From a virus: 64,000 nucleotides of DNA. The notes beneath the pieces are model-generated. The model was not told the DNA's origin, did not search any database, and saw only the letters and a list, made by a program, of their open reading frames with translations. Made by a program: the position numbers and the translations under genes. Positions 5,248-60,504 of this stretch are shown piece by piece. Position 1 is the stretch's first letter. Each line of letters starts with the position of its first letter. The stretch spans positions 125,376-189,375 of the IMG/VR virus record IMGVR_UViG_3300019850_000189. The stretch is one strand, 5' to 3'.

Positions 5248-5646
5248 ATGAAAAGAAATTACTCAAATATAACATATGAGGAATTTGCCAGGCTGAAGTT
5301 TCCCTTCTTGGCAAAATATGAAGATGAGAATACTTTATATTATATTTACTTTGATAGCGTAATACACATATTGCCCAGCTCGGCGCTGCCGAAACGCTCG
5401 GCGGTAAATATAAGAAACAAAGTAATGGAATTTAAGACTCGATTGAAATATCATGCTTTCAAATCGTCAAATGAACTTAACATATACATCGGAGCTCCTA
5501 TAAAAGATTCAATTGGTAATATTCTTTTTTTACAGAATCTCCATATAGCAAAAACACCAAATGAATTATCCGATATGAAAGAAGGTATAATTCTTGGTTT
5601 ATTTAAATACGAAAAAATAACTTTTTTGAAATCGCGATTTGACTGA
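5248..5646 (+). CDS. hypothetical protein
   Basis: ORF preceded by CATATATA (5238). Confidence 0.55.
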   Translation: MKRNYSNITYEEFARLKFPFLAKYEDENTLYYIYFDSVIHILPSSALPKRSAVNIRNKVMEFKTRLKYHAFKSSNELNIYIGAPIKDSIGNILFLQNLHIAKTPNELSDMKEGIILGLFKYEKITFLKSRFD

Positions 5647-55902: not shown

Positions 55903-56757
55903 ATGAGGAAATATTATCAAGGTTGTGGAGGAATCGCAAATCCCGATAGTCTGGGCTATTTTGAAGATGGAAGCTATTGTGCTGAAAGAAAGCATGATGG
56001 TATCTGGGCGTCATGTATAGTAAAAAACGGCCGTGCTGAATTCTGGTCAAGAAATGACAAGAAAAAAGTTGAGGGAGATATTTTACATCTCGTTCAATTT
56101 GATCTTTCCTCAGTAGATGACAGTATCCTTACTGGGGAATTAATGGCATTCTCCCAAGCTTCAAAAAAACAAAAGCATATAACTTACAACATTTATGATA
56201 TTATAAAATTCAAGGGACAGGATGTCAGTAATCTTAATATGGTAGAAAGAAGGAAAATAATTGAATCATTAAGCATATATAATGGTAAGTATACTCTTAC
56301 TAAGAGGTATTATTCTGGGTTCAAAGAACTCTTTGATAAAATAGTTGCCGAAGGTGGAGAAGGAATTGTTATAAAAAAGATGAAAGGCAAAACTCCATAT
56401 AGAGGTAACACAAGAAATATTAACTGGTATAAAGTCAAGAAGGAAGTCCGAATTAGCTATGTAATAGCAGGGTTCAATGATTCAGATTGTGATTCATGGC
56501 CTGGTGATATAAAATCAATTCAGGGCGCTCTTTATGATGATGAAGGCAATCTAAGAACTGTTTGTAACATAGGTTCAATGACAGGAGCCGAAAGAAGATG
56601 GTTTTCGGATCATAGAGATGAAGCCATTGGCAAAGTTATAGAATGTAAAGGATATGAAATATTTAAGAGTGGGGCCTTAAGACATCCATCTCTTATAGGA
56701 TTCAGAGATGATGTAGACCCTAAGGAATGTACATTTGAACAGATTAACAGAAAATAA
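55903..56757 (+). CDS. minimal ATP-dependent DNA ligase
   Basis: AERKHDG (motif I), LTGEL, YNIYDI, EGIVIK, WYKVK, OB fold GALRHPS..GFRDD. Confidence 0.85.
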   Translation: MRKYYQGCGGIANPDSLGYFEDGSYCAERKHDGIWASCIVKNGRAEFWSRNDKKKVEGDILHLVQFDLSSVDDSILTGELMAFSQASKKQKHITYNIYDIIKFKGQDVSNLNMVERRKIIESLSIYNGKYTLTKRYYSGFKELFDKIVAEGGEGIVIKKMKGKTPYRGNTRNINWYKVKKEVRISYVIAGFNDSDCDSWPGDIKSIQGALYDDEGNLRTVCNIGSMTGAERRWFSDHRDEAIGKVIECKGYEIFKSGALRHPSLIGFRDDVDPKECTFEQINRK

Positions 56758-57548: not shown

Positions 57549-58163
57549 ATGATCGAAAAGGATGAAATAATGGAAACATATGTTAGTTGTGATATAGAAG
57601 CTGATGGACCCATTCCAGGACCGCACAGCATGCTTAGCATTGGTGCGGCGGCTTTCAAGAATGGGGAATTAATAGATACATTTGAGGCCAACCTCGAAGA
57701 ACTCGAGGGAGCCTCCATGAGTACTGAAACAAAGATCTTTTGGGATAAAAATCCTGAAGCCTGGAAGGCCTGTAGAATAGATCAGCAAGATCCAAAAAAT
57801 GCCATGATTGATTTTCATAAATGGGTTACCATAACATCAAAAGGCACCAGTCCCGTTTTTGTAGCCTTTCCGTTGGGATTCGATTTTACATTTGTATATT
57901 GGTATCTGATGAAATTTGTTGAGCATTCTCCATTTTCATTTTCTGGAATAGATATGAAAACATTCGGCATGTTTATGATGAATTGTGAATACAGAAAAGT
58001 AACAAAGAAAAAGATGCCGCAACGATGGATGAGTGCGGACCACAAACATACTCACAAGGCCATAGATGATGCTATCGAACAGGGATATATATTTATCAAT
58101 ATGCTGAAAGAATACCATAAATTTATTGCTTCCTTGCAACATTCCGACGAAATTGTACTTTAA
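57549..58163 (+). CDS. DEDDh 3'-5' exonuclease (Rv2179c-like exoribonuclease)
   Basis: VSCDIEADGP.PG..SMLSIGA, GFDF, SPFS.SG.D.KT, HTHKAIDDA. Confidence 0.85.
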   Translation: MIEKDEIMETYVSCDIEADGPIPGPHSMLSIGAAAFKNGELIDTFEANLEELEGASMSTETKIFWDKNPEAWKACRIDQQDPKNAMIDFHKWVTITSKGTSPVFVAFPLGFDFTFVYWYLMKFVEHSPFSFSGIDMKTFGMFMMNCEYRKVTKKKMPQRWMSADHKHTHKAIDDAIEQGYIFINMLKEYHKFIASLQHSDEIVL

Positions 58164-58233: not shown

Positions 58234-58986
58234 ATGAAAAACAAAGCACTATATATAGTCAAAGAACTCAGAAATGCCGGATATGAAAGTGTATTGGCAG
58301 GTGGCAGCGTTCGCGATATGCTTCTTGGCATCGAGCCTCATGACTATGATATAACCACTAATGCTACTCCTGGAGTTGTTGAAGAGCTCTTTCCAAAAAC
58401 TATTTCAATCGGTAAATCATTTGGCGTTATAGTTGTTATGATAGAAAATGAACCATTTGAGGTGGCTACATGGCGTAATGATGGCGAATACCATGATGGT
58501 AGGCATCCGGATACTGTTACATTTACTTCCATGAAAGAGGATGCAAACCGACGTGATTTTACCATCAATGCTTTGTTCTATGACCCGATAGAAGATAAAG
58601 TTATTGATTATGTGAATGGTCAAGAAGATTTAAAAAATAAAGTTCTTAGATTTGTTGGTGATCCAATAAAAAGAATAGATGAAGATCGCCTAAGAATGTT
58701 AAGGGCTGTGCGTTTTGCCGCAAGGTTTGATTTGTCTATAGATTCTGCCTCCAAGATGGCCATAAAAGAGAATGCTGAGAGAATACATGATGTTTCTAAT
58801 GAAAGAATACAAGATGAACTCACCAAGCTACTGCGCATTGGCAAGCCTAGAATAGCCATAGAGCTTCTTGAGGAAACTAATCTACTCAAAGAGGTACTGC
58901 CCGAAGTTGAGGCCATGAGGAATGTTGAACAGAATCCAGAATTTCATCCCGAAGGTGCAACAGTGCAAAAAATAATTTACGATTAG
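58234..58986 (+). CDS. CCA-adding tRNA nucleotidyltransferase, N-terminal (head/neck) half
   Basis: LAGGSVRDMLLG..PHDYDITT, EVATWR, DANRRDFTINAL, EDRLRMLRAVRF, VSNERI..EL, EQNPEFHPEG. Confidence 0.9.
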   Translation: MKNKALYIVKELRNAGYESVLAGGSVRDMLLGIEPHDYDITTNATPGVVEELFPKTISIGKSFGVIVVMIENEPFEVATWRNDGEYHDGRHPDTVTFTSMKEDANRRDFTINALFYDPIEDKVIDYVNGQEDLKNKVLRFVGDPIKRIDEDRLRMLRAVRFAARFDLSIDSASKMAIKENAERIHDVSNERIQDELTKLLRIGKPRIAIELLEETNLLKEVLPEVEAMRNVEQNPEFHPEGATVQKIIYD

Positions 58987-58989
58987 TGT

Positions 58990-59111
58990 GATAAAAAACG
59001 AAATATTTAACAGAGAATGGTTGGCAAGTAAAAATTATTTGGGCAAGCTAATACAAAAAGAACAAAGAGAAAAGTATCGAAGATAGTTTAGAATACTTAT
59101 TGGGAGAATAA
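58990..59111 (+). pseudogene. C-terminal remnant of a Vsr/DUF559-type endonuclease
   Basis: DKKR(frameshift)YLTENGWQVKIIWAS*YKKNKEKSIEDSLEYLLGE*. Confidence 0.6.
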
Positions 59112-59115
59112 ACTA

Positions 59116-59790
59116 ATGAAACTTGGCCCGAAAATAACATATGATCCAAATAATCCAGAACATAAAGATCCTACTAAATATAAGCTTAATCCTGGCGATG
59201 TTCTTAATCATACCATTATAATGATGGAGAAGTTGTTTGAGAATACCGAGAATCCGAGGGATGAACTTATTTGGGCGGCCTTACTGCATGATATCGGTAA
59301 ACCTGCTACCTTTACTATTGAGGATGGTAAGATCAGAAATCATGCACATGAATTTGTTGGTGCTGAGATGGCCAAAGAATTTATGAAAAATCTAAAATTC
59401 TCTAACAAATTCACCGAAGATGTCTACTGGTTAATCCATGATCATATGCGCATTAAAAAAGCCGCAAAGATGCGCAAATCTAAGCTGAAAAAATTATTGG
59501 CTCAGGAAAACTTGGAAGAGCTTATGTCTCTTGCATATGCAGACTCTTTGGCAGCTACCAAAATGACTGAATGGCATGAGTATATTCTAGAAAAAATAAA
59601 TGAGTTTGAGCCAGAGGAAATAAAGCCGAAGCAACTTGTGAATGGCCACGATTTAATTGAACTTGGTTTCAAGCCAGGTCCAATTTTCAAAAAGATATTG
59701 GAAGAGATCGTAGAATTGCAATTGGAAGAAAAAATAAATACTCGTGAGGAAGCGCTTAAATATGCCAGAAGTAAAAAGGTCAATAGCTAA
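59116..59790 (+). CDS. CCA-adding enzyme, C-terminal HD-domain half
   Basis: GGAG RBS; GDVLNHT, AALLHDIGKP, HAHEFVGA, WLIHDHM, LAYAD, LVNGHDLIELGFKPGP. Confidence 0.9.
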   Translation: MKLGPKITYDPNNPEHKDPTKYKLNPGDVLNHTIIMMEKLFENTENPRDELIWAALLHDIGKPATFTIEDGKIRNHAHEFVGAEMAKEFMKNLKFSNKFTEDVYWLIHDHMRIKKAAKMRKSKLKKLLAQENLEELMSLAYADSLAATKMTEWHEYILEKINEFEPEEIKPKQLVNGHDLIELGFKPGPIFKKILEEIVELQLEEKINTREEALKYARSKKVNS

Positions 59791-59961: not shown

Positions 59962-60504
59962 ATGAAAAAAATTATTTATATTGATATGGATGATGTATTG
60001 GCTGAAACACTGCCGGCTATATGCGATGCTTACAATAAGATATACAAAACATCAATCACCCAAGAGGATATTGATAACTGGAAATTTTATAAATCTCTTG
60101 GGCATGATGATGACGATGGGCAAAGAATAATCAATGAAATTTTTTCTACAGAAAACTTCTGGCTCAATATAGAGCCCAAGTATAACGCTTTCCATATCCT
60201 GGCCGATCTTAATAAAACTTATGAGCTATATGTAGCCAGTGCACCCTTTCCAACCAAAAAATGTATTCCAGATAAAATAACCTGGATGAAAAAACACTTT
60301 CCATTTTTATCATATCACCAGATCATTTTTATTTACAATAAGGGCCTGCTCCGCGGAGATATAATGATTGATGATAAACCGGATAACTTAATTGGTTTCG
60401 ATGGTTTAAAAGTTTTATACAGAACTCCCGTAAACAGGCGATACAATGATTTCGATCACATTGTAAATAATTGGCGCGAAATTAAGAACCTATTTCTCAA
60501 ATAA
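59962..60504 (+). CDS. 5'(3')-deoxyribonucleotidase (NT5C, HAD)
   Basis: IYIDMDDVLA, K..WM..HFP, K.LLRGDIMIDDKP.N. Confidence 0.9.
   Translation: MKKIIYIDMDDVLAETLPAICDAYNKIYKTSITQEDIDNWKFYKSLGHDDDDGQRIINEIFSTENFWLNIEPKYNAFHILADLNKTYELYVASAPFPTKKCIPDKITWMKKHFPFLSYHQIIFIYNKGLLRGDIMIDDKPDNLIGFDGLKVLYRTPVNRRYNDFDHIVNNWREIKNLFLK

What the first reader, a model, noticed from the sequence alone, without database searches (positions are those of the whole stretch)
58234..59790. CCA-adding enzyme split into two genes by a decayed Vsr/DUF559 endonuclease
The canonical EQNPEFHPEG-DV..HT motif is broken. ORF1 ends HPEG-ATVQKIIYD* and ORF2, with its own GGAG RBS, starts MKLGPKITYDPNNPEHKDPTKYKLNP-GDVLNHT. 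The roughly 130-bp spacer translates (one frameshift, one stop) to DKKR.YLTENGWQVKIIWAS*YKKNKEKSIEDSLEYLLGE*, the typical C-terminus of Vsr/DUF559 endonucleases. Both halves keep all catalytic motifs. Established precedent: the mobE homing endonuclease splits nrdA of phage Aeh1 and the halves assemble in trans. Inference: a homing endonuclease inserted in a surface loop and was mostly deleted, leaving a two-subunit CCA enzyme. The spacer looks too short and unstructured for a group I intron.
Basis: partly seen in the sequence, partly recalled or inferred. Interest (0 to 1): 0.8.

Follow-up and report, generated by a model that had tools for sequence, protein, structure and literature searches.

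The report
Endonuclease scar splits phage CCA enzyme
A 189-kb phage encodes its tRNA CCA-adding enzyme as two genes because a selfish endonuclease cassette, now mostly deleted, cut the gene in two; the cassette left two short conserved peptides that probably hold the halves together, a fix proven so far only for one phage ribonucleotide reductase.

Summary
ORF1 (58234-58986) is the head and neck of a class II CCA-adding enzyme. ORF2 (59116-59790) is its HD/body/tail part. Intact relatives read HPEGDV without a break, so the window carries a 237-nt insert (58957-59193).

The 129-nt spacer is the last 39 codons of a zinc-finger plus Vsr-like homing endonuclease gene. That gene is whole (270-275 aa) at the same site in three metagenomic relatives. 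It is gone in two others, and an intact allele 92% identical to one of those shows the empty site.

All carriers share a 9-aa tail (ATVQKIIY[DE]) and a 26-aa leader (MKLGPK..YDP.NPEHKDP.KYKLNP). Both evolve as proteins (dN/dS 0.06-0.11). Both enzyme halves stay under purifying selection.

An intron, an intein, read-through and misassembly are excluded or very unlikely. The same tail/leader pair also flanks a second split site, in the head domain of other phage cca genes, beside GIY-YIG, a zinc-finger ORF with no nuclease family match, and IS605 inserts.

The closest precedent is Aeh1 nrdA/mobE.

The parts
58234..58956 (+). Native N-terminal part of cca (head and neck, M1-G241), ending at the G of HPEG
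   Evidence: Pfam PolyA_pol and PolyA_pol_RNAbd. 63% identical to the intact 437-aa P0002. All invariant head motifs kept.
58957..58986 (+). Cassette-borne C-terminal tail ATVQKIIYD plus stop
   Evidence: Absent from intact homologues. The same tail occurs in L008, L011, L012, L013, L020 and L009/L010 with synonymous codon changes; 6 of 8 third positions vary.
58987..58992 (+). About 6 nt left of the endonuclease gene's 5' untranslated region, and the deletion junction
   Evidence: Alignment of the cassettes.
58993..59111 (+). Remnant of the last ~39 codons and stop of a zinc-finger/Vsr-like homing endonuclease gene. It has an in-frame TAA at 59049-59051. Its last codons carry the GGAG (59103-59106) that serves ORF2.
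   Evidence: Ungapped 75-81% nt identity to the 3' ends of the L008/L012 endonuclease genes. Weak Pfam MTES_1575 match to the C-terminal end of the profile.
59116..59193 (+). Cassette-borne N-terminal leader of ORF2 (M1-P26)
   Evidence: Absent from intact homologues. Conserved in 6 loci at this site, and 13-18 of 22 residues shared with 4 loci split at another cca site. 22 of 26 third positions vary; dN/dS 0.06-0.11.
59194..59790 (+). Native C-terminal part of cca (HD domain, body and tail; G27-S224 plus stop)
   Evidence: Pfam HD and tRNA_NucTran2_2. HD-domain H/HD/H/H/D residues kept. The read-through model matches CCA-adding enzyme structures.

Best explanation
Shown: a free-standing homing endonuclease cassette inserted into the phage's cca gene (class II tRNA nucleotidyltransferase with an HD domain) at the conserved HPEG|DV codons. 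The cassette reads: tail peptide, stop, hairpin, zinc-finger/Vsr-like endonuclease gene, ribosome-binding site, start, leader peptide. In this phage about 735 nt of the endonuclease gene were later deleted. Its last 39 codons remain, and they still supply the ribosome-binding site of ORF2.

Inferred: the gene is now expressed as two polypeptides from one transcript. ORF1 is head and neck plus a 9-aa tail. ORF2 is a 26-aa leader plus HD, body and tail. The two halves reassemble non-covalently into a working CCA-adding/repair enzyme. The tail and leader start and end at what was one peptide bond, and they act as a clasp. This is the role shown by experiment for the insertion-derived tails of NrdA-a/NrdA-b in phage Aeh1.
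For: Insert boundaries: intact relatives read HPEGDV.

Full endonuclease gene at the same site in L008, L012 and L013, with the window's spacer aligning to its 3' end.

Occupied versus empty site: L011 differs from the intact L014 by one clean 118-nt insert, with about 92-94% nt identity over the first ~1,140 aligned bases.

Decay series: whole gene (L008, L012, L013), 39-codon remnant (window), 41-nt spacer (L020), 1-nt spacer (L011, whose tail ends in the endonuclease's own last two codons).

The tail and leader are translated and constrained: dN/dS 0.06-0.11, with variation concentrated at third codon positions.

Both halves are under purifying selection in two carriers: L008 vs L012 give dN/dS of about 0.11 (N half) and 0.09 (C half). 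All invariant catalytic residues are kept.

On a tree of 122 N-halves the split state needs 4 changes, at least 3 of them forced by supported branches. So the insert was gained or lost repeatedly.

The read-through model has pLDDT 86 and matches CCA-adding enzymes 6qy6 and 1miv over both halves.

Functional context: at least 34 of the phage's 36 tRNA genes lack an encoded CCA.

Precedent: PMC3045599.
Against: No experiment or structure shows that the halves bind. The AlphaFold model of the read-through gives the tail and leader low confidence (pLDDT 32-65). No alignment rows covered them and an artificial linker joined them.

No close relative of this particular phage was found (best 63% identity). 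Selection on the window's own halves is therefore judged only from retained invariant residues.

The host has its own CCA enzyme, so the phage copy could be dispensable.

CCA-adding activity, as opposed to poly(A) or partial (CC/A) activity, cannot be told from sequence. All NCBIfam matches fall below their cut-offs.
Confidence: 0.75

Rival explanations
1. The two halves are decaying pseudogene fragments. The endonuclease insertion killed cca, and the phage relies on the host enzyme.
For: The endonuclease gene itself has decayed here, with an in-frame stop and a large deletion. A host CCA enzyme presumably exists.
Against: Both ORFs are intact, and all 59 invariant residues are kept. Seven independent loci keep both halves open, where the contig reaches them. 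Between two carriers dN/dS is about 0.1 for each half, and 0.06-0.11 for the tail and leader. The split persists after complete loss of the endonuclease gene.
Confidence: 0.08
2. Both halves are functional but work apart. ORF1 is a minimal nucleotidyltransferase and ORF2 a free HD phosphohydrolase, and no complex forms.
For: The split falls at a domain boundary, the entry to the HD domain. 483 phage records match ORF1 but only 13 match ORF2, so many phage enzymes lack this C-terminal part.
Against: ORF2 carries the tRNA_NucTran2_2 body/tail region, which is part of the same enzyme in every intact relative. The tail and leader, absent from intact enzymes, are strongly conserved as peptides at the two new ends. 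That is hard to explain unless the ends interact. The genes stay adjacent and translationally coupled in all carriers.
Confidence: 0.1
3. The insert is a small group I (or other self-splicing) intron with a decayed endonuclease ORF. Splicing restores one mRNA.
For: Phage endonuclease genes often sit in group I introns at conserved sites. At 237 nt the insert is near the lower size limit of such introns.
Against: No Rfam match at E<=10. The fold energy is worse than shuffles, z=+1.18. None of the four junctions that would restore GAA-GGN-GAT has a U before the 5' splice site together with a G at the intron's 3' end (sequence). The homologous insert is only 115-118 nt in L011. The flanks evolve as coding sequence with their own stop, ribosome-binding site and ATG.
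Confidence: 0.03
4. The tail and leader are the halves of a split intein that ligates the two proteins.
For: In the 'fractured genes' of Dassa et al. 2009 (PMC2677866) the same kind of Vsr-like endonuclease gene with an upstream hairpin lies between split-intein halves. An earlier, unchecked note of this scan reports such a uvsX in this same genome.
Against: Tail plus leader total 35 aa, far below an intein fold (established knowledge). There is no Cys/Ser/Ala-1 block A. The leader ends ...KLNP before Gly, so there is no terminal Asn followed by a Cys/Ser/Thr nucleophile.
Confidence: 0.01
5. Assembly or sequencing artefact, or read-through/frameshifting that yields one protein.
For: In the window ORF1 and ORF2 happen to lie in the same frame.
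Against: Four stops separate the ORFs. In L011 and L020 the halves lie in different frames. The same architecture appears in seven independent assemblies.
Confidence: 0.01

Closest known systems
Aeromonas phage Aeh1 nrdA-a / mobE / nrdA-b (Friedrich et al. 2007, cited from the introduction of the next paper; Crona et al. 2011, PMC3045599)
   Same: [quoted passage not shown] The new C- and N-terminal tails come from the insertion. In Aeh1 they are essential for activity.
   Different: The host gene differs (cca, not nrdA), and so does the endonuclease family (zinc finger plus Vsr-like). Here the endonuclease gene is largely deleted. The tails are not unique to one phage: they recur, under purifying selection, in at least 7 loci at this site and in 6 contigs (at least 4 distinct elements) at a second cca site beside other inserts. 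No biochemistry exists here.
'Fractured genes' with split inteins and free-standing Vsr-like or GIY-YIG endonuclease genes (Dassa et al. 2009, PMC2677866); I-Bth0305I as the structural representative of the Vsr-like family (Taylor et al. 2011, PMC3239194)
   Same: The kind of endonuclease is the same. Vsr is the top solved structure by sequence profile and by fold, and I-Bth0305I (3r3p) also appears in the fold list. There is a hairpin upstream of the endonuclease start. That paper also saw loci where the endonuclease gene has been lost while the split remains.
   Different: There are no split-intein halves here, only 9-aa and 26-aa peptides. The host gene is not one of the DNA synthesis and repair enzymes listed there; 'CCA' and 'nucleotidyltransferase' have no occurrences in that paper.
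Intact class II CCA-adding enzymes with an HD domain (for example Tunturiibacter phage Tunturi_5 gp279; NCBIfam TIGR02692 and NF009814; structures 6qy6 and 1miv for the transferase part)
   Same: Colinear domains and all conserved motifs. The model of the read-through superposes on solved CCA-adding enzymes with TM 0.70-0.74, normalised to the target.
   Different: The enzyme is encoded as two polypeptides with 35 extra residues at the break.

Membership tests
Class II tRNA nucleotidyltransferase (CCA-adding type) with C-terminal HD domain | PolyA_pol head domain with GGxVRD, DxD, RRD and the EDxxR template motif, plus the neck (PolyA_pol_RNAbd) | tested here: met
   Pfam 1.4e-39 and 3.3e-18. 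G23 G24 R27 D28, D37 D39, R106 R107 D108, and E150 D151 R154 are invariant and present.
Class II tRNA nucleotidyltransferase (CCA-adding type) with C-terminal HD domain | HD domain (H...HD...H...H...D) and tRNA-binding body/tail | tested here: met
   Pfam HD 5.8e-15 and tRNA_NucTran2_2 2e-11. ORF2 H32, H58-D59, H78, H110 and D143 are invariant.
Class II tRNA nucleotidyltransferase (CCA-adding type) with C-terminal HD domain | Overall fold of solved CCA-adding enzymes | tested here: met
   Read-through model: pLDDT 86. Foldseek 6qy6 E=2.5e-21, 1miv E=3.4e-19.
Class II tRNA nucleotidyltransferase (CCA-adding type) with C-terminal HD domain | Single polypeptide | tested here: not met
   Two ORFs separated by four stops.
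Class II tRNA nucleotidyltransferase (CCA-adding type) with C-terminal HD domain | CCA addition rather than poly(A), CC-only or A-only addition | not testable with these tools
   NCBIfam CCA and PcnB models score alike, all below their cut-offs, also for the intact P0002.
Vsr-like (PD-(D/E)xK) homing endonucleases | Vsr-type nuclease domain in the full-length gene | tested here: met
   A profile of 36 relatives hits only Vsr in the PDB (E=0.002), with the D...E.xGxxxH...D...GW...WE motifs colinear. Foldseek top hits are 1vsr and 1cw0 (prob 0.97-0.99), and 3r3p I-Bth0305I (prob 0.77). Pfam MTES_1575 (7e-6) and DUF559 (1e-3) are below their cut-offs. Evidence is moderate, not strong.
Vsr-like (PD-(D/E)xK) homing endonucleases | Intact endonuclease ORF in this window | tested here: not met
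   Only the last ~39 codons remain, with an in-frame stop. The nuclease domain has no copy elsewhere in the 189-kb genome.
Vsr-like (PD-(D/E)xK) homing endonucleases | Occupied and empty alleles of one conserved target site | tested here: met
   L011 vs L014. The split state is scattered on the cca tree.
Vsr-like (PD-(D/E)xK) homing endonucleases | Site-specific cleavage and homing | not testable with these tools
   Needs expression of the L008-type enzyme and cleavage assays.
Endonuclease-fragmented 'genes in pieces' with insertion-derived tails (Aeh1 NrdA type) | Host gene split at the endonuclease insertion into two adjacent genes, with extra terminal peptides absent from intact homologues | tested here: met
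Endonuclease-fragmented 'genes in pieces' with insertion-derived tails (Aeh1 NrdA type) | The halves assemble and the tails are needed for activity | not testable with these tools
Only indirect support exists: purifying selection on the tail and leader.
Fractured gene with split intein | N- and C-intein halves with terminal splicing residues | tested here: not met
   A 9-aa tail and a 26-aa leader. The leader ends LNP before Gly.
Group I intron | Conserved catalytic core and sufficient length in all carriers | tested here: not met
   No Rfam match at E<=10. Fold z=+1.18. The insert is 115-118 nt in L011.

The most novel reading that the evidence does not exclude
The tail ([TGF]V[RQ]KI[IL][YE]..) and the leader (MKLGPx3[YF]DPxNP[ED]H..xKY) form an autonomous, portable two-piece 'clasp'. 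It would be a non-splicing counterpart of a split intein. Mobile endonuclease cassettes carry it along, so that they can cut an enzyme gene in two at different places without killing it. The same pair flanks two unrelated break points of cca (the HPEG|DV entry to the HD domain and the head-domain loop before Y.xxGR.P). It sits beside at least four kinds of insert: zinc-finger/Vsr-like, GIY-YIG, a zinc-finger ORF with no nuclease family match, and IS605 TnpA/TnpB.
Probability: 0.4. Interest if true: 0.8.

Novelty: new variant of a known kind. Interest (0 to 1): 0.6.

Why it matters
Fragmentation of an enzyme gene by a homing endonuclease, rescued by insertion-derived tails rather than by RNA or protein splicing, rests on one studied case (Aeh1 NrdA). 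Its authors suggested it might be a general mechanism.

This locus and its relatives give comparative evidence for that. There is a natural decay series, from a whole endonuclease gene to a clean scar. There is an empty-site allele. The tails are conserved as peptides across lineages whose host proteins are only 45-60% identical.

The same tail/leader pair at a second break point, beside other endonucleases, makes a direct question testable: is this a self-sufficient heterodimerising tag? If it is, it explains how intron-less and intein-less endonuclease genes can colonise essential genes. It would also be a compact natural tool for split proteins.

For phage biology, it shows that a tRNA 3'-end repair or maturation enzyme is kept under selection as a two-subunit protein. 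The phage has 36 tRNA genes, almost none with an encoded CCA.

Tried and rejected
- As a substitute I folded the in-frame read-through (table 6) with intact homologues as the alignment. The cores are confident, but the tail and leader have pLDDT 32-65 and are uninformative.
- Alignment A3, which mixed split and intact rows, misaligned the tails and leaders. I did not use it.
- blastn of the region against phage genomes found no match.
- ORF2 found no close relative in IMG/VR with the peptide patterns used.
- A search for longer (unsplit) proteins that contain the leader found none; this is weak evidence.
- DNA-pattern scans for the leader in IMG/VR returned only split loci. The GTDB-genome scan returned a single locus, L025, also split. 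So no ancestor with an unbroken tail-leader loop was found.
- The same genome holds no DNA or peptide paralogue of the remnant and no nuclease-domain match.
- Promoter and terminator scans gave no more sites than shuffles.
- tblastn of the L019 fragment against phage genomes found no leader-bearing relative.
- P0039/L007, a bacterial contig whose cca is broken at the same HPE motif, looks like a plain frameshift with no cassette. I set it aside.
- Literature searches found no paper that describes a split cca.

Full report
**Context.** The window is the last 64 kb of a single 189,375-bp contig of about 35% G+C. ARAGORN finds 36 tRNA genes on it. Around the finding lie an ATP-dependent ligase (55903-56757), an Rv2179c-like 3'-5' exoribonuclease (57549-58163) and an NT5C nucleotidase (59962-60504).

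**Observation.** ORF1 (58234-58986, 250 aa) carries the PolyA_pol head and the RNA-binding neck. ORF2 (59116-59790, 224 aa) carries an HD domain and the tRNA_NucTran2_2 region. ORF1 ends HPEG-ATVQKIIYD*. ORF2 starts with a 26-residue leader before GDVLNHT. A GGAG lies 9 nt upstream of its ATG.

On the intact gene of Tunturiibacter phage Tunturi_5, ORF1 residue G241 and ORF2 residue G27 map to the same codon. The closest relatives also read HPEGDV without interruption: P0002 (437 aa, 63% identical) and a 436-aa IMG/VR protein in L002. So the window holds a 237-nt insert, 58957-59193.

**What the spacer is.** A metagenomic contig (L008) encodes an N-half that is only 56% identical to ORF1 yet ends in the identical tail ATVQKIIYD*. 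A 271-aa ORF follows, and then a C-half that starts with a homologous leader. L012 and L013 have the same layout, with ORFs of 275 and 270 aa.

These ORFs have an N-terminal C2H2-type zinc finger. Their C-terminal domain matches MTES_1575/DUF559 weakly in Pfam. A profile of 36 relatives hits only E. coli Vsr in the PDB (E=0.002), with the catalytic motifs colinear. An AlphaFold model (pLDDT 88) has 1vsr and 1cw0 as its top Foldseek hits, and the I-Bth0305I catalytic domain is also listed. The family is large: 5,592 cluster representatives at E<=0.001.

Window bases 58993-59109 align without gaps to the 3' ends of these genes, 88/117 nt to L008 and 88/109 nt to L012. The frame is kept, with one in-frame TAA (59049-59051). 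Relative to L008, about 735 nt are missing: the 5' untranslated hairpin and codons 1-232. The phage has no other copy of the nuclease domain.

**A decay series and an empty site.**
- In L020, a 54.8-kb IMG/VR contig, only a 41-nt spacer separates the halves.
- In L011 the stop of the N-half and the ATG of the C-half are one base apart. The tail ends in the endonuclease's own last two codons (...GGAGAATAA), which also provide the ribosome-binding site.
- L014 encodes an intact 435-aa enzyme. Its DNA is about 92-94% identical to L011 over the first ~1,140 aligned bases and differs by one clean 118-nt insert, bounded by a GGAG repeat. Because 118 is not a multiple of three, no read-through can fuse the halves there.

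On a maximum-likelihood tree of 122 N-halves, the five split genes fall among intact ones. The split state needs four changes, at least three of them forced by well-supported branches. The insert has therefore been gained or precisely lost several times.

**Are the halves and the new ends functional?**
- Every one of the 59 columns invariant among 31 intact homologues is retained.
- Between two carriers (L008, L012) dN/dS is 0.044/0.415 for the N-half and 0.021/0.243 for the C-half. Split L011 against intact L014 gives 0.19.
- In the tail, 6 of 8 third codon positions vary, against 2 first and 1 second. In the leader, 22 of 26 third positions vary, against 11 first and 8 second. Ala and Val of the tail use all four codons.
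- Pairwise dN/dS of tail plus leader is 0.06-0.11. These 35 residues are therefore translated and constrained as protein.
- Their dN (0.04-0.14 among five carriers) is several times lower than that of the host halves (0.32-0.55). Their dS (0.6-1.4) is lower than the mostly saturated dS of the host halves. This hints at a more recent common origin of the cassette, but 33 codons are few.

**Rivals.**
- Intron: no Rfam family matches at E<=10. The RNA is less stable than its shuffles, z=+1.18. No junction has the canonical U/G ends. The homologous insert is as short as 115-118 nt.
- Split intein: 35 residues with no splicing termini.
- Read-through: four stops here, and different frames in L011 and L020.
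- Misassembly: seven independent assemblies share the layout.
- Pseudogene, or independently acting halves: these remain possible but fit the selection data poorly.

**Structure.** The in-frame read-through, folded with intact homologues, gives a confident two-part model (pLDDT 86, pTM 0.75). It superposes on CCA-adding enzymes (6qy6, 1miv; TM 0.70-0.74, normalised to the target). The break lies at the entry to the first helix of the HD domain. The tail and leader are modelled with low confidence, so nothing can be said about their shape.

**The same peptides at a second site.** Pattern scans for the leader found further loci: L019, L021, L022, L024, L023 and L025. In these a cca gene is split in the head domain, between FE[VI]A.[FL]R.. 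and Y..[TS]GR.P.

Their C-fragments begin MKLGP.EPYDP[NK]NP[DE]H....KY, sharing 13-18 of 22 residues with the leaders at the HPEG site. Their N-fragments end ...[GTF]VRKI[IL]E(K)*, compared with ...TVQKIIY[DE]* at the HPEG site.

The intervening genes differ:
- GIY-YIG in L022 and L025.
- In L023, a 295-aa ORF with no nuclease family match in Pfam. Its C-terminus looks HNH-like by eye only. Its N-terminus shares the zinc finger of the Vsr-like enzyme (41% over 34 aa).
- An IS605 TnpB ORF, matched by Pfam, in L021. A TnpA-like ORF beside it, and the same ORFs in L024, were recognised by eye only.

So the tail/leader pair is not tied to one endonuclease or to one break point. The simplest reading is that it is an autonomous association module that cassettes carry along. 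This is an inference.

**Comparison with what is known.** The arrangement works like Aeh1 nrdA-a/mobE/nrdA-b. There, tails that arose with the insertion are essential for activity (PMC3045599). It also resembles the fractured genes of Dassa et al. in the Vsr-like endonuclease, the upstream hairpin and the occasional loss of the endonuclease gene, but it has no split intein (PMC2677866).

No paper in the library describes a split cca. Earlier notes of this scan, unchecked by me, describe head-domain cca splits in other phages, and one first-reader note describes a split just after HHPEG in another genome. My own loci confirm that both sites recur.

**Verdict.** This is a new host gene and site for a known kind of gene fragmentation. 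The new feature is that the rescuing peptides are conserved and shared between sites and endonuclease types.

Noticed in passing
L019:650-1024; L021:3587; L022:1538; L024:5535; L023:1135(-); L025:163(-): Other phage or metagenome cca genes are split in the head domain, before Y..[TS]GR.P and RRD.TINA. Their C-fragments start with a leader homologous to the window's (13-18 of 22 residues). Their N-fragments end in a related tail (..VRKIIE..).
   Followed up: partly
L021:1948-3422 and L024:3896-5370, compared with L022: An IS200/IS605 element has landed inside the GIY-YIG cassette that splits cca. L022 has the same cassette without it. Only the L021 TnpB ORF was matched by Pfam; the TnpA-like ORF and the L024 copy were recognised by eye.
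   Followed up: partly
L012:2215-2985 (-): A second endonuclease gene (four NUMOD3 motifs plus a Vsr domain, Pfam 3e-7) lies on the opposite strand just after the cca C-half and overlaps its 3' end by about 35 nt.
   Followed up: no
L008:1735-1768; L013:~155-185; L020:~5470-5495 (-): A hairpin sits just upstream of the endonuclease start (GCCCTCTGCTA...TAGCAGAGGGC in L008), as Dassa et al. described for fractured genes. A remnant of it survives in the 41-nt spacer of L020.
   Followed up: no
L008 vs L012: The endonuclease genes are more diverged at synonymous sites (dS 1.04) than the cca halves that flank them (dS 0.24-0.42). This suggests exchange of the endonuclease gene between cassettes, or faster evolution.
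   Followed up: no
genome C1:78638-105220 (upstream of the window): ARAGORN finds 36 tRNA genes. None is followed by CCA, and at most two could end in an encoded CCA. One is called tRNA-Pyl, which may be an amber suppressor; the anticodon was not checked.
   Followed up: partly
window 57549-58163: An Rv2179c-like 3'-5' exoribonuclease gene lies directly upstream of the split cca on the same strand. Together they look like a tRNA 3'-end turnover and repair module.
   Followed up: no
L007:1162-2282: On a 164-kb metagenomic contig with bacterial-type neighbouring genes, cca is broken at the same HPE motif into 262-aa and 112-aa ORFs that overlap by 7 nt, with no cassette. This looks like a frameshift or a sequencing error.
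   Followed up: no
genome C1:71902-72681 (-): A 260-aa ORF matches only the N-terminal (non-nuclease) part of the endonuclease profile (E=2e-4). It may be a related DNA-binding module.
   Followed up: no
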